Source: Eledone cirrhosa (taxonomy: Eukaryota). Taken from it: DNA of 64,000 bases. The stretch covers positions 275,838,001-275,902,000 of the forward strand of contig OZ024740.1 of assembly GCA_964016885.1 (NCBI GenBank). Reading direction: 5' to 3'. Within the stretch, counting starts at the first letter, position 1; every line of letters starts with the position of its first letter. The notes below the pieces were generated by a model. The model was not told the origin of the DNA, made no database searches, and saw nothing but the letters and a program-made list of their open reading frames with translations. Shown here piece after piece: positions 3,111 through 47,710 of the stretch. The position numbers and the translations under genes were made by a program.

Positions 3111-3392
3111 TGGGCAGGATGTGTGGGGTGGAAATATGGGCATGTGTGAGGGGCAGAGTGTTAGGACATGGGTGGTGTGTGGAAGGAGAGATGAAGATGA
3201 AAGTAGTGCATACCAGATATATGCTTCAGCCTGTACTCATGGGAGGTGTATGGGAGAAAGTGGGGGTGAATACAGTTCTAGTCATATAGAAGCCATTTCT
3301 ATATAAAATAAAGATACCTATCCTCTACCAATGTATTGAGTACCCTTTTGAACTGTGGTTACCTCTCAGCGCATATCAAGAACATACCCATA

Positions 3393-3660: not shown

Positions 3661-4344
3661 CCTAACATCGCCCACAACAGGATAGGTATCTTTATTTTAT
3701 TTAGAAATGGCTTCTATAGGACTTGAAATGTTTCATTCATATGAAATCAAAAGGCAACATATAAATTTAATCTGATTTTCTTGATGATTTTATACGAATG
3801 AATCAGTTCATTGGCATCTGTTTTAAACAATTCTGAATGGATGGTGATACCTATATTAATATTTTCTTGATAAATTACTTTATCATAGTCAAGCCCAAAC
3901 CAAAAATTCTTTCAGCCAGCCATGTGACTTGGTATAATGGCCTTACTTTCACATAGAAAGACATGAAAGAGCTCCAAACAAAATAGTAAAATAAAGTCAG
4001 GAGGAGGAATGAAATAAAGCTTATTGTTAGAAATAAAGCATAAGTAAGTTTTAAAAGACTATATTTGTTATATGATAGTCCTAACAAAAACGAAAACTTT
4101 TAATTGATTCTTGCCAATTCCGACCATCACTGAATCTCGTTGGAATCATGTGATTATAATCTTAGCTAGTAGGCACAAAATGGAAAACAAAACATACTAC
4201 TCCTATGCCATGTACATCCATCTCAACATCCATCCCTGCATCTCTCCCTCTCGGTGTTACATTTATCACCTTCACCACCACCACCTTTTCAGCTATTACT
4301 TAAACAATTGCTGGTGTCAATACTCCTTCCTATATTACCACGCT

Positions 4345-7300
4345 ACCAACACCAACATCACCACTATCACCAGCACCAACACCATCACCAGCACCAGCAC
4401 CAACATCACCACTATCACCAGCACCATCACCATCACCAGCACCAACACCAGCACCAGCACCAACACCAGCACCAGCACCAACACCAGCACCAGCACCATC
4501 ACCATCACCAACACCAACACCAACACCAACACCAACACCAGCACCAGCACCAGCACCAACACCAGCACCAGCACCAACACCAGCACCAGCACCAACACCA
4601 GCACCAGCACCATCACCATCACCAACACCAACACCAGCACCAGCACCAACACCATCACCAACACCAGCACCAGCACCAGCACTAACACCAACACCAGCAC
4701 CAGCACCATCACCACCATCAACACCAACACCAACACCAACATGACCACCATCACCAGCACCAACACCAACACCATCACCAGCACCAACACCAACACCATC
4801 ACCAGCAGCATCACCAGCACCAGCACCATCACCAGCACCAACACCAACACCATCACCAGCAGCATCACCAACACCAGCACCAACACCAGCACCAACACCA
4901 GCACCAGCACCAACACCAGCACCAACACCAGCACCAGCACTAGCACCAGCACCAGCATCAGCACCAACACCAGCACCAACACCAGCACCAGCACTAGCAC
5001 CAGCACCAGCACTAGCACCAGCACCAACACCAGCACCATCACCAACACCAACACCAACACCAGCACCAGCACCAGCACCATCACCAACACCAGCACCAAC
5101 ACCAGCACCATCACCAACACCAACACCAACACCAGCACCAACACCAACACCAACACCAACACCACCACCAGCACCAACACCAACACCAACACCAACACCA
5201 GCACCATCACCAACACCAACACCAACACCAGCACCATCACCAACACCAACACCAACACCAACACCACCACCAGCACCAACACCAACACCAACACCAACAC
5301 CAACACCAGCACCAACACCAGCACCATCACCAACACCAACACCAACACCAACACCAACACCAACACCAACACCAGCACCAACACCAGCACCATCACCAAC
5401 ACCAACAACAGCACCAGCACCAGCACCAGCACCAACACCAACACCAGCACCAACACCAGCACCACCACCAACACCAGCACCAACACCAACACCAACACCA
5501 GCACCAACACCAGCACCACCACCAACACCAGCACCAACACCAACACCAACACCAGCACCAACACCAGCACCACCACCAACACCAGCACCAACACGAACAT
5601 CAACACCAACACCAACACCAGCACCATCACCAACACCAACACCAACACCAACACCACCACCAGCACCAACACCAACACCAACACCAACACCAACACCAAC
5701 ACCAGCACCAACACCAGCACCATCACCAACACCAACACCAACACCAACACCACCATCAACACCACCACCAACACCAACACCAGCACCAACACCAGCACCA
5801 TCACCAACACCAACAACAGCACCAGCACCAGCACCAGCACCAACACCAACACCAGCACCAACACCAGCACCACCACCAACACCAGCACCAACACCAACAC
5901 CAACACCAGCACCAACACCAGCACCACCACCAACACCAGCACCAACACCAACACCAACACCAGCACCAACACCAGCACCACCACCAACACCAGCACCAAC
6001 ACGAACATCAACACCAACACCAACACCAGCACCATCACCAACACCAACACCAACACCAACACCACCACCAGCACCAACACCAACACCAACACCAACACCA
6101 ACACCAACACCAACACCAGCACCAACACCAGCACCATCACCAACACCAACACCAACACCACCATCAACACCACCACCAACACCAACACCAGCACCAACAC
6201 CAGCACCATCACCAACACCAACACCAACACCAGCACCATCACCAACACCAACACCAGCACCAACACCAGCACCATCACCAACACCAACACCAACACCAAC
6301 ACCAACACCAACACCAACACCAGCACCAACACCAGCACCATCACCAACACCAACACCAACACCAACACCAGCACCATCACCAACACCAACACCAACACCA
6401 TCACCAGCACCAGCACCAGCACCAACACCAACACCAACACCAACACCAGCACCAGCACCACCACCAGCACCAACACCAGCACCAGCACTAGCACCAGCAC
6501 CAGCATCAGCACCAACACCAGCACCAACACCAGCACCAGCACTAGCACCAGCACCAGCACTAGCACCAGCACCAACACCAGCACCATCACCAACACCAAC
6601 ACCAACACCAACACCAGCACCAACACCACCACCAGCACCAACACCAACACCAACACCAACACCAGCACCAACACCAACACCAGCACCAGCACCAGCACCA
6701 TCACCAACACCAGCACCAACACCAGCACCATCACCAACACCAACACCAACACCATCACCAACACCAACACCAACACCAACACCAACACCACCACCAGCAC
6801 CAACACCAACACCAACACCAACACCAACACCAACACCAACACCACCACCAACACCAGTACCATCACCAACACCAACACCAACACCAGCACCAGCACCAGC
6901 ACCATCACCAACACCAGCACCAGCACCAACACCAACACCAACACCAACACCACCACCAGCACCAACACCAACACCAACACCAACACCAGCACCATCACCA
7001 ACACCAACACCAGCACCAGCACCAACACCAACACCAACACCAGCACCAACACCAACACCAACACGAACACCAACACCAACACCAACACCAACACCAACAC
7101 CAATACCAACACCAACACCAACACCATCACCAGCACCAACACCAACACCAACACCATCACCAGCACCAACACCAACACCAACACCATCACCAACACCAAC
7201 ACCAACACCAACACGAACACCAACACCAACACCATCACCAGCACCAACACCAACACCAACACCATCACCAGCACCAACACCAACACCAACACGAACACCA

Positions 7301-10300
7301 ACACCATCACCAGCACCAACACCAACACCAACACCATCACCAGCACCAACACCAACACCAACACCATCACCAACACCATCACCAACACCAACACCAACAC
7401 CAACACCAACACCAGCACTAACACAGACACCAAAACCAACACCAACACCACCACCATCACTAACACCAGCACCAACACCAACACCAACACCAGCACCAAC
7501 ACCAGCACCAACACCACCACCATCACTAACACCAGCACCAACACCAACACCAACACCAGCACCAACACCATCACCAACACCAGCACCAACACCATCACCA
7601 TCACCAACACCAGCACCAACACCAGCACCACCACCATCACCATCACTAACACCAGCACCAACACCAACACCAGCACCAACACCAGCACCACCACCAACAC
7701 CATCACTAACACCAGCACCAACACCAACACCAGCACCAACACCAGCACCAACACCAACACCATCACTAACACCAACACCAACACCAACACCAGCACCAGC
7801 ACCAACACCAACACCACCACCACCACCAACACCATCACTAACACCAGCACCAACACCAACACCAGCACCGACACCAACACCATCACTAACACCAGCACCA
7901 ACACCAACACCAGCACCACCACCAACACCATCACTAACACCAGCACCAACACCAACACCAGCACCAGCACCACCACCAACACCAACACCAACACCAACAC
8001 CAGCACCAACACCAACACCAACACCAGCACCAACACCAACACCAGCACCGACACCAACACCAACACCAACACCATCACCAACACCAGCACCAACACCAAC
8101 ACCAACACCAACACCATCACTAACACCAGCACCAACACCAGCACTAGCACCAGCACCAGCATCAGCACCAACACCAGCACCAACACCAGCACCATCACCA
8201 ACACCAGCACCAACACCAACACCAACACCAACACCATCACTAACACCAACACCAACACCATCACTAACACCAGCACCAACACCAACACCAGCACCAACAC
8301 CAACACCAGCACCAGCACCAACACCAGCACCAGCACCAACACCATCACCAACACCATCACCAACACAGACACCAGCACCATCACCAACACCAACACCAAC
8401 ACCAACACCAACACCAACACCAGCACCAACACCATCACCAACACAGACACCATCACCAACACCAGCACCATCACCAGCATCAGCACCAACACCAGCACCA
8501 ACACCAACACCATCACCAACACCAACACCAGCACCAACACCAACACCAACACCAGCACCAGCACCAACACCAACACCAGCACCAGCACCATCACCAACAC
8601 AGACACCATCACCAACACCAGCACCATCACCAACACCAACACCAACACCAACACCAGCACCATAACCACCACCAACACCAGCACCAGCACCAACACCAAC
8701 ACCAACACCAACACCAACACCAACACCAACACCAGCACCAGCACCAACACCAACACCAGCACCAGCACCATCACCAACACAGACACCATCACCAACACCA
8801 GCACCATCACCAGCACCAACACCAACACCAACACCAGCACCATAACCACCACCAACACCAGCACCATCACCAACACCAGCACCAGCACCATCACCAACAC
8901 CAACACCAGCACCATCACCAACACCAACACCAACACCAGCACCAGCACCAACACCATCACCAACACCATCACCAACACAGACACCAGCACCATCACCAAC
9001 ACCAACACCAACACCAACACCAACACCAACACCAGCACCAACACCATCACCAACACAGACACCATCACCAACACCAGCACCATCACCAGCACCAACACCA
9101 ACACCAGCACCAGCACCATCACCAACACAGACACCATCACCAACACCAGCACCATCACCAGCACCAACACCAACACCAACACCAACACCAACACCAGCAC
9201 CATCACCAACACCAGCACCAGCACCATCACCAACACAGACACCATCACCAAAAACCAGCACCATCACCAGCACCAACACCAACACCACCACCAACACCAG
9301 CACCATCACCAACACCAACACCAGCACCACCAGCACGATCACCAACACCAGCACCATCACCAACACCAGCACCAGCACCATCACCAACACCAACACCATC
9401 ACCAACACCAGCACCAGCACCAACACCATCACCATCACCAACACCATCACCAGCACCAGCACCAACACCAGCACCAGCACCAACACCAACACCAGCACCA
9501 ACACCAACACCAGCACCAGCACCAACACCAACACCAGCACCAGCACCAGCACCAACACCAGCACCAACACCATCACCAACACCATCACCATCACCAGCAC
9601 CAGCACCAACACCATCACCATCACCAACACCATCACCAACACCAGCACCAGCACCAACACCAACACCAGCACCAGCACCAGCACCAACACCAGCACCAAC
9701 ACCATCACCATCACCAGCACCAGCACCAACACCAACACCATCACCATCACCAACACCAGCACCAACACCAACACCAACACCAGCACCAGCACCAACACCA
9801 ACACCAGCACCAACACCATCACCAACACCAGCACCAACACCATCACCAACACCATCACCATCACCAGCACCAGCACCAACACCAACACCATCACCATCAC
9901 CAACACCATCACCAACACCAGCACCAGCACCAACACCAACACCATCACCAGCACCAGCACCAACACCAACACCATCACCAACACCAGCACCAACACCAAC
10001 ACCAGCACCAACACCATCACCAACACGAACACCAACACCAACACCAACACCAACACCAGCACCAACACCAACACCAGCACCAACACCAACACCAACACCA
10101 ACACCATCACCATCATCAACACCAACACCAACACCAACACCAACACCAGCACCAACACCAACACCAACACCAGCACCAACACCAACACCAACACCAGCAC
10201 CAACACCAACACCAACACCATCACCATCACCAACACCAACACCAACACCAACACCATCACCATCACCAACACCAACACCAGCACCAACACCAACACCATC

Positions 10301-13300
10301 ACCAGCACCAGCACCAACACCAGCACCAACACCAACACCAGCACCAACACCATCACCAACACGAACACCAACACCAACACCAACACCAACACCAACACCA
10401 GCACCATCACCATCACCAACACCAACACCAACACCAGCCCCAACACCAACACAACCACCAACACCAACACCAACACCAGCACCAACACCAACACCAACAC
10501 CAGCACCAACACCAACACCATCACCAACACCAACACCAACACCAGCACCAACACCAACACCAGCACCAGCACCAACACCAACACCAGCACCAGCACCAAC
10601 ACCAACACCAGCACCAGCACCAACACCAACACCAACACCAGCCCCAACACCAACACAACCACCAACACCAACACCAACACCAGCACCAACACCAACACCA
10701 ACACCAGCACCAACACCAACACCATCACCAACACCAACACCAACACCAACACCAACACCAATACCAACACCAGCACCAGCACCAACACCAACACCAACAC
10801 CAACACCAACACCAGCACCAACACCAACACCAGCACCAACACCAACACCAGCACCAACACCAACACCAGCACCAACACCAACACCAACACCAACACCAAC
10901 ACCATCACCAACACCAACACCAACACCAATACCAACACCAGCACCAGCACCAACACCAGCACCAACACCAACACCATCACCATCACCAACACCAACACCA
11001 ACACCAATACCAACACCAGCACCAACACCAACAACAGCACCAACACCAACACCAGCACCAACACCAACACCAACACCAACACCAGCACCAACACCAACAC
11101 CAGCACCAACACCAACACCAACACCAACACCAATACCAACACCAGCACCAGCACCAACACCAACACCAGCACCAACACCAACACCAACACCAACACCAGC
11201 ACCAACACCAGCACCAACACCAACACCAGCATCAACACCAACACCAATACCAACACCAGCACCAGCACCAACACCAACACCAGCACCAACACCAACACCA
11301 GCACCAGCACCAACACCAACACCAGCACCAACACCAACACCAGCACCAACACCAACACCAACACCAACACCAACACCAGCACCAACACCAACACCAGCAC
11401 CAACACCAACACCAACACCAACACCAACACCAGCACCAGCACCAACACCAACACCAGCACCAACACCAGCACCAACACCAACACCAACACCAACACCAGC
11501 ACCAACACCAACACCAGCACCAACACCAACACCAGCACCAACACCAACACCAGCACCAACACCAACACCAACACCAACACCAACACCAGCACCAACACCA
11601 ACACCAACACCAGCACCAACACCATCACCAGCACCAGCACCAACACCAACACCAGCACCAACACCAACACCAGCACCAACACCAACACCAGCACCAACAC
11701 CAACACCAACACCAGCACCAACACCAGCACCAGCACCAACACCAACACCAGCACCAACACCAACACCAACACCAACACCAACACCAACACCAGCACCAAC
11801 ACCAACACCAACACCAACACCAGCACCAACACCAACACCAGCACCAACACCAACACCAGCACCAACACCAACACCAACACCAGCACCAACACCAGCACCA
11901 GCACCAGCACCAACACCAACACCAGCACCAACACCAACACCAACACCAGCACCAACACCAACACCAACACCAGCACCAACACCAATACCAACACCAGCAC
12001 CAACACCAACACCAGCACCAACACCAACACCAACACCAGCACCAACACCAACACCAGCACCAACACCAACACCAACACCAACACCAGCACCAACACCAAC
12101 ACCAACACCAACACCAGCACCAGCACCAACACCAACACCAGCACCAACACCAACACCAACACCAGCACCAGCACCAGCACCAACACCAGCACCAACACCA
12201 ACACCAGCACCAACACCAACACCAATACCAGCACCAACACCAATACCAACACCAGCACCAACACCAACACCAACACCAACACCAGCACCAGCACCAACAC
12301 CAACACCAGCACCAACACCAACACCAACACCAACACCAACACCAGCACCAGCACCAACACCAGCACCAACACCAACACCAGCACCAACACCAACACCAAT
12401 ACCAGCACCAACACCAATACCAACACCAACACCAACACCAGCACCAGCACCAACACCAACACCAGCACCAACACCAACACCAACACCAGCACCAGCACCA
12501 GCACCAACACCAGCACCAACACCAACACCAGCACCAACACCAACACCAATACCAGCACCAACACCAACACCAGCACCAACACCAACACCAACACCAGCAC
12601 CAACACCAATACCAACACCAGCACCAACACCAACACCAACACCAACACCAACACCAACACCATCACCAGCACCAACACCAACACCAACACCAGCACCAAC
12701 ACCAACACCAACACCAGCACCAACACCAGCACCAGCACCAGCACCAACACCAGCACCAACACCAACACCAGCACCAACACCAACACCAACACCAACACCA
12801 GCACCAGCACCAACACCAATACCAGCACCAACACCAACACCAACACCAGCACCAGCACCAGCACCAACACCAGCACCAACACCAACACCAACACCAACAC
12901 CAGCACCAGCACCAACACCAATACCAGCACCAACACCAACACCAACACCAGCACCAACACCAACACCAACACCAGCACCAACACCAACACCAACACCAAC
13001 ACCAGCACCAGCACCAACACCAATACCAGCACCAACACCAACACCAACACCAGCACCAGCACCAGCACCAACACCAGCACCAACACCAATACCAACACCA
13101 ACACCAACACCAATACCAACACCAGCACCAACACCAGCACCAACACCAGCACCAACACCATCACCAGCACCAGCACCAGCACCAGCACCAACACCATCAC
13201 CAGCACCAGCACCATCACCAGCACCAGCACCAACACCAGCACCAACACCAACACCATCACCAGCACCAACACCAACACCAACACCAGCACCAACATCAAC

Positions 13301-14348
13301 ACCAACACCAGCACCAGCACCAGCACCAACACCAGCACCAACACCAACACCAACACCAGCACCAACACCAACACCAGCACCAACACCAATACCAACACCA
13401 GCACCAACACCACCACCAACACCAACACCAACACCAGCACGAACACCAGCACCATCACCAACACCATCACCAACACCAGCACCAACACCAACACCAGCAC
13501 CAACACCAACACCAACACCAACACCATCACCATCACCAACACCAACACCAACACCATCACCATCACCATCACCAACACCATCACCAACACCAACACCAAC
13601 ACCAACACCATCACCATCACCAACACCAGCACCAACACCAACACCAACACCAACACCAACACCATCACCATCACCAACACCATCACCAACACCAACACCA
13701 ACACCAACACCAACACCATCACCATCACCAACACCAGCACCAACACCAACACCAACACCAGCACCAACACCAACACCAACACCATCACCAACACCAACAC
13801 CAGCACCAACACCACCACCAACACCAACACCAACACCAGCACCAACACCAACACCAGCACCAACACCAACACCAGCACCAACACCACCACCAACACCAAC
13901 ACCAACACCAGCACCAGCACCAACACCAGCACCAGCACCAACACCAGCACCAACACCAACACCAACACCAACACCAGCACCAGCACCAACACCAGCACCA
14001 GCACCAACACCAGCACCAACACCAACACCAACACCAACACCAGCACCAACACCAACACCAGCACCAACACCAACACCAACACCATCACCACCACCAACAC
14101 CAACACCAACACCAATACCAGCACCAGCACCAGCACCAGCACCAACACCAGCACCAACACTGCCAACACTAACACCAACACCACCACCACCAACACCACC
14201 ACCACCACCAACACCACCACCACCAACACCACCACCACCAACACCAACACCACAACCAACAACATCAACACCACCACCAACACCACCACCACCAACACCA
14301 CAACCAACAACACCAACACCACCACCAAGACCACCACCACCAACACCA
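4345..14348. repeat. ~10 kb degenerate hexamer satellite (ACC-AAC/AGC/ATC)n
   Basis: Continuous accaac/accagc/accatc units; one phase shift near 9251; internal higher-order duplications. Confidence 0.95.
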
Positions 14349-34120: not shown

Positions 34121-34853
34121 AAAACTGAGCTACTGCTAATACTATTTTTCAACTGAGTTGACTGGAGTAAAGTGAAATAAAGTATTTTGCTCAAGAACAC
34201 AACTTTCCACCTCATTGACGAACAAAACCCACGACATTAAAATCATAAGTCCAACACGCCAACACGCTAATATATATCATCATCAACATAATTTAATATC
34301 CATTTTCTCTGCTTGCAAGAGTTGGACATCATATAGTTACAGAGTAGTCAGTACTCAAGCAGAGCCTCATGTCTCCAGGCGGGCCAAGTGTCCAACATAC
34401 TATCCTGTTCTCTACCAAATGAATTTTATCATGTTGGCAACTCTAAAGAGGTTGTCGTGTATTTGGCATAGCTGAACAGTGTTTGAGTCCCTTTCTTTGT
34501 TTGGTAGGTTGACTATGGCTGGATGTCCTCCCTATGACCAATCACTTGACAGAATGTACTGTTTGACGGTTTATTTATCATGTAGATTACCATTATTAGG
34601 GAGGTTGTGATGTCCATGACGTATCTGAAGAGTCCTTCAAATCTTTAGTTTGGCAAGTTTTCAGTGCCTGGATACCTTTCCCCCTCATCAATCAGCTTAC
34701 AGAGTGTATTGGATGCATTTTATAGTGGCATCAGCACTAAGTAGGTTGTCAGAGTTGGTGTTGAACATCGTTAAACTAATATATTTCTTTATTGTACTCT
34801 GTCGTTTGCTTTGTTATTTCTGTTTACTTTTTGCATACATACACACACAGACA

Positions 34854-34955
<102 letters not shown>

Positions 34956-34981
34956 TATAAATATACGTATGTATATGTATA

Positions 34982-35124
<143 letters not shown>

Positions 35125-35141
35125 TAGTTTTAATATAGAAG

Positions 35142-35192
35142 AGCTTCTACAGCACTAGAACTGTTTCATTCGCGAGAAATCATCAGGAAGCT
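35142..35192 (-). ncRNA. Type I hammerhead ribozyme
   Basis: Minus strand: agcttc-CTGATGA-tttc tcgc gaat-GAAA-cag ttctagtg ctg-TA-gaagct. Confidence 0.85.
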
Positions 35193-35225
35193 GGCTGTCC
35201 AAATAAGTGGTAGTATTTATACAAA

Positions 35226-35299
35226 TTGCTGACTGAGGATCCTGTGGGTTGTTATACTGCACATATCGGTGGTGAAACGAACGAGATTCGTATCAGCAA
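35226..35299 (+). ncRNA. Type I hammerhead ribozyme
   Basis: ttgctga-CTGAGGA-tcc...ggt-GAAA-cgaa cgaga ttcg-TA-tcagcaa. Confidence 0.85.
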
Positions 35300-35492
35300 A
35301 CTTATAGTTATAAGGTTGGTAATTTAAAACTCTAATTCAGAGAATTGATTCTGACTTAGTTTTTTTCTATTTAATTGCTAAACCTGTAGATATTGTTCTC
35401 TATACAGTAACGGTAAAACCCACATGTAATAATTCTTTACCACACATCTCACTGTGTAACACACTTCTCTTTGTGTAATATATTTGTATATA

Positions 35493-35581
<89 letters not shown>

Positions 35582-35974
35582 ATTTAAGTTAAAAATGTAC
35601 ATCTACATATGCATACTGAAATACTAGTGTGTATATGAATACACACACGTATACATATGTAGGTGTACCAAGTCTTTCACTGGTCGCTTTACAGTGAGCG
35701 ACCCAGCTATTCTGTATGTAAACACACAGACAAACCGGTTTTTAGAGTCATACTGGTTTTGGGGGGAACACCTTCCCCCTATTCTCCAGAAAGCCAGACA
35801 AGGAATATTGAACTAGTTTCGTTGTTGTTACAACTCATCAGCAATATTTACCTATCTACAGGCCTTTCTGGAGAATTGTAAAAGCACATATCGTTATATG
35901 CTTTTTCTATGAAAATTAGTAGTGGGCAGACTAATTTGCATAGAGTGTGAGTACGCACCGGTTCAGCGGAGACG

Positions 35975-36027
35975 ATAAAAACAAATAACGAAACGAAATT
36001 TAATTTCGTTTCGTTATTTGTTTTTAT
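35975..36027. repeat. Perfect 53-bp palindrome abutting (TA)n
   Basis: ataaaaacaaataacgaaacgaaatt-t-aatttcgtttcgttatttgtttttat. Confidence 0.9.
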
Positions 36028-44410: not shown

Positions 44411-44419
44411 GAAGAAGAA

Positions 44420-47400
44420 GAAGAATTGAATAGAACTGTTATGCAATGCTACCTGAAAAGTAACCCCAAGGAGAGGGGCTACAGGAGACGGATGCATAAC
44501 ATCTGGAACGAGATTGGTTTATTTAAATTAGATGAACAAAAATTGGCCGGGCAGGCTCGGGTAATAAGAACTAATGGGTGGATAAGCGAGCTGGAACTGG
44601 AGGAACTGAGCAGAGAGAATGGCTTGGAGATGGCGGGTGTAGTATGCCAGACAAGCGAGCCGGCGGGAAATGAAGGTGAGGAGGTCCTGAGAATGGAGGA
44701 ACCACCCGAAGCAGACAATGATCTGAATACTGAGATAAATAATACCTGGAACAGAGATACGGCCACTGAGGAGATGAATGCTGACGGGCTAGGACAAGAT
44801 TCGGTTGACATCCTAAATTTAGTGGTAGATGAGTTGAACAATGATAGTGGGAGACCTATGAACCTAAGATTTGTAGACAGGAAAAAGTTAAAAGAAACAA
44901 CAGCTAAGGTAAACAAAGTCATCCCATACCTTGAGGCGAGGAGTCTTCACCAGTGCAACAATATCCTCAAAGCAACAGCAAATACGGTGAGGAAACTACT
45001 TGGTATAAAAGCGAGAGGAAACAACAGACAAGAAAGAGCAGAGCCGTGGTGGAAGAAGCGACTGAGTGGGCAAATCGGGGAAATGAGAAATGACATAGGA
45101 AAGCTTGAGTCACTACTGAATGGGACACTAAAAAACATAGGCACTAAAAATAGACTGGAAATAAAATACAAAACTAGGAGTAAAAAGCTAAATATTATCA
45201 TAGAGGAATTGAAGCAACGCATTGTAGCAAAGAGTGCCAAAATCAGGCGATACGAGAACAGAGTCAGTCAGTATAAACAGAACCGCATGTTCGACAACAA
45301 CCAGAAGATGCTGTTTGGACAGCTTGAGGGGAAAGAAAGAGGCAACGACTTGATCCCTGGGGCGGAACAAGCTAAAACATTCTGGAGAGGAATATGGGAG
45401 CAGGATGTTAGACACAATGCCCAGGCAGGGTGGATTGAGACAGTACAGAGGGAGATCGGTGAGCAGGCACAGCAACAGACTGATTTGAGTATCACAGTTG
45501 AAACTCTTAAGGGGCAAGCCAAAAAACTAACCAACTGGAAATCACCAGGCCCAGATGGTGTGCAGGGGTATTGGATTAAACATTTAACATCCCTCCACCC
45601 GAAGCTGACGGCCATGTTCAATGACTGCTTGGTGTCGGGTGAGGTGCCAGAGTGGTTGACAAAAGGTACCACAGTTCTGATAATGAAAGACCGAATCAAG
45701 GGTAATGATGTTACCAACTATAGACCTATCACATGTCTGCCCGTAATGTGGAAACTGTTGACGAGCATTGTGTCTGAGGAAATCTACCATCACCTCCACA
45801 CAAACAACTTGTTGCCGGACGAACAGAAAGGATGCCGAAAGAAGTCACGTGGTACAAAGGACCAGTTGCTTATTGATAAGATGGTAATGGGGAATTGCAG
45901 GAGGAGACACACTGATCTTGCCATGGGATGGATAGACTACAGAAAGGCATTTGACATGGTGCCTCATTCCTGGATCACCAAAAGCCTGGAGATCTTCAGG
46001 GTGGCAGATAACATCAGACAGTTGCTGGGCAGGAGTATGGGGTCCTGGGAGACAGAGTTGACATCAACTGGAGTATCCTTGGGAAGCGTGAAGATCAAGA
46101 GAGGTATCTTCCAGGGAGATAGCCTGTCCCCTCTGTTGTTTGTCCTTGCCCTGATGCCCTTGACCATTATGCTGCGAAAAGTGAGAGCAGGATACAAGTT
46201 GGACGATCTTAAGCTCTTCGGGAAAAGTGAGAAGGAGTTGGATGTGCTTGTTGACACTGTCCGTATTTTCAGCAGTGATATATGTATGCAGTTTGGTATT
46301 GGTAAATGTGGAGTCATTGTGATGAGGAGGGGTAGGTTGAGCAGAAGTAACGGGATCCAGATACCAACAGGTGAGATGATAAAGGAAATTGACTCTGAGG
46401 AAGGATACAAGTATTTGGGCGTTCTGGAGGCTGATGGCATAAAGAACAAAAAAATGAAGGAATTGTTAAGAACTGAATACATTCGGAGAGTAAGGAGCGT
46501 ATTGAAGTCACATCTGAACAGCAGAAATGCCATAAGCGCAGTAAATTCCCGAGCTGTGTCTATTATTAGGTACAGTGCGGGAATTCTGAGATGGAATGTT
46601 GCTGAACAAAAAGAAAAGGATAGGAAGACTAGGAAGCTATTGACTATCTACAACATGTTCCACAAGAGGAGTGATGTCGATAGACTCTACCTAAGGAGAT
46701 CTGAGGGTGGAAGAGGTCTTATCAGCATAGAGGACTGTGTTCAGATGGAGAAAAACAACCTATACAAATACGTGACCTATAGTAAGGAGCCAATGCTCAG
46801 AGCTGTACTGAAGGAGGGGACAGTAGGCCAGGGGATATCCAAGGAGGAAATAACATCAAGGAGGAAGAGCAGCCTTAAGGGAAAATCCCTTCATAGTACC
46901 TTCTTTGAGAAAACTGAATTTAGAGATCCACAGACATGGAACTGGTTGAGAAGAGGAGACCTCAAAAAGGCTACAGAAGGAATGCTAATGGCTGCGCAGG
47001 AGCAGGCCCTCAAAACGAAGTGGTTGAAGCACCATATCTACAAGGAGGAGGCTAGCCCACTGTGCAGGATCTGTGGAGAGAGAGAGGAGACTGTGGCTCA
47101 CATTGTGTCCGAGTGTAAACACCTAGCCCAGACCCACTATAAGGGCTGGAGACACGATGTGATGGGCAGGGTGATCCACTGGCACCTGTGCAAAGTAAAC
47201 AATCTACCACATTCTGAGAAATGGTATGAGCATAGGCCAGAGGCGGTGATGGAGAACAGTCAGGTGAAGGTGCTGTGGGATTTTAGGATACAGACGGACA
47301 AAAAACTGGAACACAATAGACCTGACCTGGTGGTTGTGGACAAAGAAAAAAGATCGTGCCTGATTGTGGATGTGGCCTGCCCGTTCGACACGAGAGTGCA

Positions 47401-47710
47401 AGAGAAGGAGAGGGAGAAAATTAACCGATACTAGGACCTAAAGTGGGAGGTGAAAAGGATTTGGAACTGCCATGAAGTCAAAGTGATCCCGATTGTCATA
47501 GGCGCACTGGGGACTATCTCCAAAGGTTTCCAGAGATGGTTAAAGAAAATCGGCCCCTTCACGCTTTTTGGAACGCTTCAAAAGGCATGCTTGCTTGGAA
47601 CGGCAAGAACCCTCCGATACGTCCTGAATATCTGAGGCTGCAGGTAGTGGCTTGATATTCAATCCAACGGACTTTCCAGTTAACCAACATCAATGACTGA
47701 GATTCAAGGA
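44420..47710 (+). mobile_element. R4/Dong-clade non-LTR retrotransposon (RT plus restriction-like endonuclease) in (TAA)n
   Basis: (TAA)n-type tracts at 44364-44410 and 47709-47757; single ORF; short 3' UTR. Confidence 0.9.
44426..47635 (+). pseudogene. Disabled RT-RLE polyprotein
   Basis: RT motifs KSPGPDG, NYRPITCL, IDYRKAFDMV, GIFQGDSLSP, YKYLG; CCHC CRIC..ETVAHIVSEC; RHD; NRPDLVV..D..P..K. In-frame TAG at 47432-34; the YMDD region is reduced to LDD. Confidence 0.9.

What the first reader, a model, noticed from the sequence alone, without database searches (positions are those of the whole stretch)
35142..35299. Two different intact-looking hammerheads back to back on opposite strands
A minus-strand hammerhead (35142-35192) and a plus-strand one (35226-35299) lie 33 nt apart, divergent, within one island between (TA)n tracts. 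They are not reverse complements of each other, so this is not a simple fold-back. Both have real 3-4 bp stem III helices. Ribozymes in both polarities are characteristic of viroid-like circular RNAs. Alternatively, two PLE ends were joined by template switching. Both explanations are inference.
Basis: partly seen in the sequence, partly recalled or inferred. Interest (0 to 1): 0.8.

Follow-up and report, generated by a model that had tools for sequence, protein, structure and literature searches.

The report
One-off collision of two hammerhead transposons
The two back-to-back hammerhead ribozyme motifs are real, but each belongs to its own abundant mobile-element family and no second copy of their join was found in the genome, so this is most likely an ordinary pile-up of Penelope-type insertions at a TA microsatellite, not a viroid-like RNA.

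Summary
Both type I hammerheads are at the stated coordinates, 33 nt apart and divergent.

The minus one (A) is the pseudo-LTR hammerhead of a Penelope-like element (PLE). It has 1,678 exact core copies and lies directly upstream of intact 758-763-aa RT/GIY-YIG ORFs with Hydra-clade motifs. The plus one (B) belongs to a non-coding 548-549-bp tandem repeat of the non-LTR retrozyme kind (155 exact copies).

The A/B junction was found once in 3.0 Gb, and no other A or B locus fetched has it (0 of 68 A loci, 0 of 89 B loci).

Divergent hammerhead pairs are routine here: 26 of 28 such pairs in other loci are same-family fold-backs, the known 5'-inverted PLE structure. The junction bases match B's own inverted 3' tip primed on TATA, and a third family (C) sits in the same TA array. 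Most likely B inserted beside a 5'-truncated A. A single two-template event is the main rival. Cleavage and expression are untested.

The parts
34853..35124 (.). (TA)n tract, left flank; the 3' end of fragment A joins it
35125..35221 (-). Fragment A: 97-nt 5'-truncated piece of the pLTR of a Hydra-type Penelope-like element
   Evidence: 96-98% identical to dispersed copies over query 1-97; same motif upstream of intact 758-763-aa ORFs in 7 of 8 loci
35142..35192 (-). Type I hammerhead A; predicted cut between 35148 and 35147 (GUA)
   Evidence: stem I position 4 is C-G in 32 and A-U in 10 of 59 distinct copies
35218..35226 (.). Junction: TATA (the end of A, and TA-target-like) plus CAAA(T), the reverse complement of B's own 3' tip at 35482-35490
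   Evidence: 8-nt match to the reverse complement of B; CAAA is the commonest 4-mer after the TA run at the outer end of B inverted arms, 15 of 42
35226..35486 (+). Fragment B: 5'-truncated piece (positions 1 to about 261) of a 548-549-bp non-coding tandem repeat, non-LTR-retrozyme-like
35226..35299 (+). Type I hammerhead B; predicted cut between 35292 and 35293 (GUA); weak stem II
35487..35578 (.). (TA)n tract between B and C
35579..36027 (-). Fragment C: near-complete monomer of a third, younger 467-bp tandem hammerhead repeat, with its own short 5' fold-back (35987-36027)
   Evidence: 99% identical dispersed and tandem copies; monomer and mapping
35788..35859 (-). Type I hammerhead C with a short palindromic stem III and G10.1-C11.1
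   Evidence: Rfam HH9 38.6 bits, below the gathering score of 52

Best explanation
Two unrelated hammerhead-bearing repeat fragments abut once, head to head, most likely because they were inserted one after the other into the same (TA)n tract by Penelope-type target-primed reverse transcription. Shown: A is the pLTR hammerhead of an RT plus GIY-YIG element with Hydra-clade motifs; B is a non-coding 548-549-bp tandem repeat; both families end at TA tracts; both make head-to-head inverted insertions with their own sequence. Inferred: a 97-nt 5'-truncated A was fused to the tract at its internal TATA. B was later primed at that TATA, leaving a 5-nt inverted tip of its own 3' end and a direct arm cut off at the 5' edge of its hammerhead. 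C inserted independently further right. Each ribozyme's likely job is in its own family (cutting precursor RNA, or making monomer circles for B); the pair as such has no function.
For: Exact cores: A 1,678 and B 155, controls 0. Junction pattern: 1 hit genome-wide, this window. Junction DNA search: only the window spans both sides among 22 matches. The 354-nt search gave only B-half hits besides self. The B monomer is in 0 of 68 A loci; no head-to-head A at the 5' end of 29 + 60 other B loci. A fragments lie near B in 4 of 29 and 3 of 60 B loci, far above a uniform expectation under 1% (my arithmetic), so co-location is common. 81 of 87 B copies end at TA and 54 of 87 carry an inverted arm of their own sequence. 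20 of the first 100 listed A cores are in divergent A-A pairs, and all 10 pairs were checked as fold-backs. 26 of 28 divergent pairs in 207 other loci are same-family; the 2 mixed pairs are separated by 34-38 nt of TA. The junction bases match B's commonest outer-end signature, and L137 has a similarly tiny tip. Literature: inverted 5'-truncated arms and (TA)n targeting are described for PLEs and the Hydra clade (PMC8557442); dual hammerheads on opposite strands 100-700 bp apart are reported in Schistosoma (PMC4209133).
Against: No TA tract survives between A and B, only the TATA that A's own sequence supplies. The outer architecture (a 3' end on TA at both sides, 5' ends joined) is exactly that of a single two-armed PLE insertion. 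The rest of A is not found right of B, so this is not a simple nested insertion. A and B are about equally diverged from their relatives (3-4%), so age does not separate them. Very short inverted tips are rare (1 clear case among 33 B copies without a long arm). One other B copy, L175, is joined directly to a different repeat family with no TA between, so inter-family joins do occur. No autonomous partner was tied to B by sequence.
Confidence: 0.65

Rival explanations
1. One chimeric insertion event. A PLE reverse transcriptase primed at the TA tract on A RNA, copied 97 nt, and jumped at TATA to the 3' end of B RNA; the other strand was primed on B RNA, and the two arms were joined.
For: Both outer ends are 3' ends on TA tracts and there is no TA tract in the middle, as in same-family inverted insertions. 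Divergence is similar. A nascent A cDNA ending in TATA could prime on B and give the same junction bases. L175 shows another direct inter-family join.
Against: 0 of 89 other B loci and 0 of 68 A loci show an A/B arm pair. B already has its own inverted tip, so A is not needed as its left arm. Neighbouring insertions in TA tracts are far commoner than direct inter-family joins (7 of 89 against 1 of 60).
Confidence: 0.28
2. A viroid-like or ambisense circular RNA with hammerheads in both polarities, integrated as a unit.
For: Catalytic cores and GUA sites are intact on both strands. On the minus strand, hammerheads C and A could in principle cut out a 663-nt RNA (35810 to 35148) that carries B in antisense.
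Against: The junction was found once. The halves belong to separate families of 1,678 and 155 exact cores. B and C monomers have no CUGANGA on the opposite strand. There is no direct repeat to release a unit, and the island's circular-fold z-scores are -0.9 and -2.2.
Confidence: 0.02
3. Two separate neighbouring insertions were later brought together by a deletion or TA-tract collapse, or the join is an assembly artefact.
For: Long (TA)n tracts are unstable and hard to assemble (general knowledge). The two other mixed pairs are about 550 nt apart with TA between.
Against: The four junction bases that belong to neither consensus match B's usual insertion-end signature, which a random deletion or mis-join would not be expected to leave.
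Confidence: 0.05

Closest known systems
Hydra-clade Penelope-like elements (Craig et al. 2021, PMC8557442), for example Hydra-1_Obim and Penelope-13_HM
   Same: C-terminal GIY-YIG; RWR (RWK-like), DKT, CxCX5C linker and CxxC/CxH motifs in the ORF next to hammerhead A; (TA)n targeting; a hammerhead in the pLTR. U.U at the base of stem II occurs in 14 of 25 Hydra families in their File S2 (my count). Penelope-13_HM carries the same hammerhead on both strands through a 5' inverted copy.
   Different: A's hammerhead sequence differs from that of Hydra-1_Obim, so it is another family. A's pLTR includes a long TA/TG microsatellite stretch. Here the opposite-strand partner comes from a different family. 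The clade was assigned by motifs and by-eye likeness; no tree was built.
Non-LTR retrozymes of animals (Cervera and de la Pena 2020, PMC7229834; Li et al., bioRxiv 10.64898/2026.07.22.740005)
   Same: B and C are non-coding, low-GC head-to-tail tandem repeats with one type I hammerhead per monomer, with PLE-style inverted arms and TA ends.
   Different: The monomers (548-549 and 467 nt) are longer than the 170-400 nt described. CircRNA expression is untested. B's circular fold is only weakly better than shuffles (z -2.0), C's much better (z -9.2).
Opposite-strand dual hammerheads of Schistosoma mansoni PLEs (PMC4209133)
   Same: Two type I hammerheads close together on opposite strands in PLE debris.
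   Different: Those are 100-700 bp apart and, in the text I read, not said to be from different families. Here the gap is 33 nt and the families differ.
Avsunviroidae and viroid-like RNAs with ribozymes in both polarities (recalled)
   Same: A self-cleaving motif on each strand.
   Different: No unit-length repeat, no recurrence as a unit, no rod fold; each half traces to a genomic transposon family.

Membership tests
Type I hammerhead ribozyme | CUGANGA and GAAA core, NUH site, stems I and III closed | tested here: met
   A and B; compensatory C-G/A-U pair in A stem I, 32 against 10 of 59 copies
Type I hammerhead ribozyme | G10.1-C11.1 and a stable stem II | tested here: not met
   U.U in both families; B has only 2 base pairs before an internal loop. 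U.U is a documented natural variant in Hydra PLEs
Type I hammerhead ribozyme | Self-cleavage | not testable with these tools
   needs an in vitro assay
Hydra-clade PLE (family A) | Hammerhead in a pLTR adjoining a single RT plus C-terminal GIY-YIG ORF | tested here: met
   A homology upstream of 758-763-aa ORFs in 7 of 8 loci. GIY-YIG Pfam E 0.008, below cut-off. Atlas hits 0.96-0.99 to GIY-YIG/RVT_1/HTH_animal clusters. Pfam RVT_1 itself was not hit
Hydra-clade PLE (family A) | DKT, RWK-like motif, CxCX5C linker, CxxC and CxH near the conserved E and N, no CCHH | tested here: met
Hydra-clade PLE (family A) | Insertion into (TA)n | tested here: met
   seen at many A copy ends; not counted
Hydra-clade PLE (family A) | Placement in an RT phylogeny | not tested
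   no reference proteins were aligned and no tree was built
Non-LTR retrozyme (family B) | Head-to-tail tandem monomers, one type I hammerhead each, no coding capacity seen | tested here: met
   L063 and L064 have 548- and 549-nt periods; six-frame translations are full of stops
Non-LTR retrozyme (family B) | Monomer of about 170-400 nt | tested here: not met
   548-549 nt against PMC7229834
Non-LTR retrozyme (family B) | Expressed as circRNA | not testable with these tools
   needs RNA data for this organism
Viroid-like ambisense circular RNA | Both-polarity ribozymes recurring as one unit, in tandem or with terminal repeats | tested here: not met
Viroid-like ambisense circular RNA | Strongly self-paired rod or branched circle | tested here: not met
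   z -0.9 and -2.2

The most novel reading that the evidence does not exclude
The island is a single insertion made from two different RNAs, an autonomous Hydra PLE pLTR and a retrozyme. That would be direct genomic evidence that one PLE reverse transcriptase handles both templates and builds its inverted 5' arms by a template jump or twin priming, naming the Hydra family as the mobiliser of retrozyme B. A bolder extension, a 663-nt minus-strand RNA cut out by hammerheads C and A with B in antisense (a proto-viroid made by accident), I put at about 0.02.
Probability: 0.28. Interest if true: 0.5.

Novelty: new member of a known kind. Interest (0 to 1): 0.2.

Why it matters
As it stands it matters little. 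It adds what look like new members of known kinds (a Hydra-type PLE family and two long retrozyme-like repeats). It also warns that 'hammerheads in both polarities' in an animal genome is a routine product of PLE inversion and TA targeting, so it is no sign of a viroid-like agent. If the single-event reading were proved, it would link a retrozyme to its mobilising PLE and bear on the unsettled mechanism of PLE inverted arms.

Tried and rejected
Rfam found neither A nor B even at E<=10, only C below its gathering score; the miRNA hits are TA-repeat noise.

Sequencing runs: no RNA holder listed. Contigs of three runs from one sample did not bridge the junction; a hole there proves nothing.

Pfam on broken ORF pieces gave nothing above cut-off. 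The PDB sequence search gave nothing significant.

I first read family A as Neptune-clade and changed this to Hydra after reading the motifs. I first took U.U at stem II for a possible new variant and dropped that on seeing File S2.

Simple nesting of B inside a longer A was rejected because no remainder of A lies to the right. Dating A against B by divergence did not discriminate.

Earlier scan findings: nothing relevant. A paper on PLE hammerhead variants that I recalled (Lunse et al.) is not held and was not read. Searches (titles and abstract starts only) listed no paper on mixed-family back-to-back pairs; that is not proof of absence.

Full report
Observation. The window sequence shows a minus-strand type I hammerhead at 35142-35192 (A) and a plus-strand one at 35226-35299 (B), 33 nt apart and divergent, between (TA)n tracts at 34853-35124 and 35478-35578. 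Both have a CUGANGA and GAAA core, closed stems I (6 and 7 bp) and III (3 and 4 bp plus A15.1-U16.1) and a GUA site. A relaxed descriptor found 8 motifs in the window, against a mean of 0.12 in 50 shuffles. The stricter version found A but missed B, and Rfam hit neither. Both have U.U instead of G10.1-C11.1. B's stem II is weak, and its hammerhead fold is about 10 kcal/mol above an alternative rod. The two share no meaningful similarity.

Does the pair recur? No second copy was found. A search of the own genome (3.0 Gb) with 35125-35478 scored 40 of 2,759 candidates, and every hit except the window began at query position 93 or later, that is, in B alone. The left 101 nt found a second family (40 of 1,637 candidates scored) whose matches stop at position 97. 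Exact core patterns gave 1,678 copies of A and 155 of B, with reversed controls at 0. A gapped junction pattern gave 1 match, this window. A 66-nt junction search gave 22 matches, of which only the window spans both sides. Among 211 held loci only the 4 that are this locus match. The B monomer is in 0 of 68 A loci. No head-to-head A was seen at the 5' end of 29 similarity-picked B loci or of 60 more taken in listed order from the first 100 of the 155 exact cores. These searches could miss a heavily mutated second junction.

What A is. A copies continue past the junction into a common upstream sequence. Two copies ran on downstream into a decayed reverse-transcriptase ORF. A protein search with one piece returned 150 scored matches of 25,994 candidates, many in open frames of about 758 aa. 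Of 8 such loci fetched, 7 have the A sequence just upstream of the ORF on the same strand. [quoted passage not shown] That is the description of the Hydra clade of Penelope-like elements, which insert into (TA)n (PMC8557442, section 11 read). Profile support is modest: Pfam GIY-YIG E 0.008, below cut-off, and no RVT_1 hit; atlas hits of 0.96-0.99 to GIY-YIG, RVT_1 and HTH_animal clusters. The paper's supplement lists a Hydra family from an octopus, whose protein resembles L204 by eye but whose hammerhead differs. It shows U.U at the base of stem II in 14 of 25 Hydra families (my count). A stem I pair covaries, C-G in 32 and A-U in 10 of 59 distinct copies.

What B is. B copies continue upstream into a common sequence and form head-to-tail repeats of 548-549 nt with one hammerhead each. 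The translations seen were full of stops, and there is no core on the opposite strand. This matches non-LTR retrozymes (PMC7229834, passages and section 14; bioRxiv 10.64898/2026.07.22.740005, part 1 of 5), except that the monomer is longer than 170-400 nt. Of 87 B loci (89 less two segmental duplicates), 81 end at TA and 54 carry an inverted arm of their own sequence of 20 nt or more. That is the known 5'-inverted structure of PLE insertions (PMC8557442, passages). No autonomous partner was tied to B.

Back-to-back hammerheads are routine here. Twenty of the first 100 listed A cores are in divergent A-A pairs, and all 10 pairs are fold-backs, 9 of them with gaps of 4-19 nt between cores. In 207 other loci (some overlapping; pairs de-duplicated), 28 divergent pairs lay within 600 nt. 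Of these, 26 were same-family and 2 mixed, both about 550 nt apart with 34-38 nt of TA between. The window itself holds same-family pairs at 837/879 and 60505/60626. Opposite-strand dual hammerheads were already reported for Schistosoma PLEs (PMC4209133, parts 1-2 of 4 read). A fragments lie near B in 4 of 29 and 3 of 60 B loci. A uniform expectation from the exact-core counts is well under 1% (my arithmetic), so the families cluster at TA tracts. A third family, C, fills 35579-36027 next door. It is a 467-nt tandem repeat with copies 99% identical and its own fold-back.

The junction. A ends at its own TATA (35218-35221). Four bases, CAAA, belong to neither consensus, and B starts at the first base of its stem I. 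TATACAAA(T) is the reverse complement of this B copy's 3' end (35482-35490), and CAAA is the commonest 4-mer following the TA run at the outer end of B inverted arms, 15 of 42. L137 has a comparably tiny inverted tip. So B appears to carry its own minimal left arm, primed on TATA (inferred). The rest of A is not to the right of B, so A was probably already truncated at that TATA; B copies are often cut off at such TA-like points.

Mechanism. Most likely (0.65), two successive insertions went into one TA tract. The main rival (0.28) is one event in which a nascent A cDNA ending in TATA jumped to B RNA. It explains the same bases and the missing middle TA tract. It fits the equal divergence (3-4%) and has a possible parallel in L175, where B is joined directly to another repeat family. 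Later deletion or an assembly error gets 0.05; contigs from one sample neither confirm nor deny the join. A viroid-like unit gets 0.02. It does not recur, has no repeat to release a monomer and does not fold like a rod (z -0.9 and -2.2). Cuts at A and B alone would give each strand only one ribozyme-made end.

Verdict. The parts are new members of known kinds, and the pair is a one-off. Cleavage and expression were not tested. The organism is probably an octopus; that is my inference from genome size and repeat content, not a tested result (PMC13282606, passages only, reports Penelope-like and Dong-R4 elements in an octopus). PMC6765202 was seen as passages only. Supplements of PMC4209133 and PMC7229834 were not opened, and those of the bioRxiv preprint are closed; they may list related hammerheads.

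Noticed in passing
window 35579-36027 (-): Third hammerhead family C: a 467-nt tandem repeat with copies 99% identical, arrays of 5 or more monomers and a strongly self-paired circular fold (z -9.2). It is the best candidate here for an active retrozyme circRNA.
   Followed up: partly
window 837-/879+, 60505-/60626+, 55799-/55946+, 48258-/48306+, 15349+: Further same-family back-to-back or single hammerhead-like motifs of other families. The first two pairs and 15349 pass the descriptor; the other two pairs are degenerate.
   Followed up: partly
window 44411-47434 (+): A 1007-aa open frame with RVT_1 (E 1e-19) and zf-RVT, next to a (TAA)n tract; it looks like a Dong/R4-type non-LTR retrotransposon (label recalled).
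   Followed up: partly
window 4345-14339: A 10-kb array of 6-nt-based units (ACCAAC-like, TRF period 18) with open frames of over 3,000 codons on both strands.
   Followed up: no
L067-L075 (G000:C1): Family A fold-back points lie within 4-19 nt of the hammerhead core, in stem I, in 9 of 10 divergent pairs picked from the first 100 listed cores. This suggests the ribozyme structure stalls or redirects reverse transcription.
   Followed up: partly
L175 (G000:C3:351983762-351985562): A B copy joined at its 5' truncation directly to a different fold-back repeat with no TA tract between; a possible inter-family template switch.
   Followed up: partly
L204-L211; one search list: Many intact, about 90% identical 758-aa Hydra-type ORFs, so this PLE family is abundant and probably recently active. 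Its pLTR contains a long TA/TG microsatellite stretch.
   Followed up: partly
window 3267-3363 (+) and 3695-3754 (-): Two older, more diverged family A fragments in opposite orientation.
   Followed up: no
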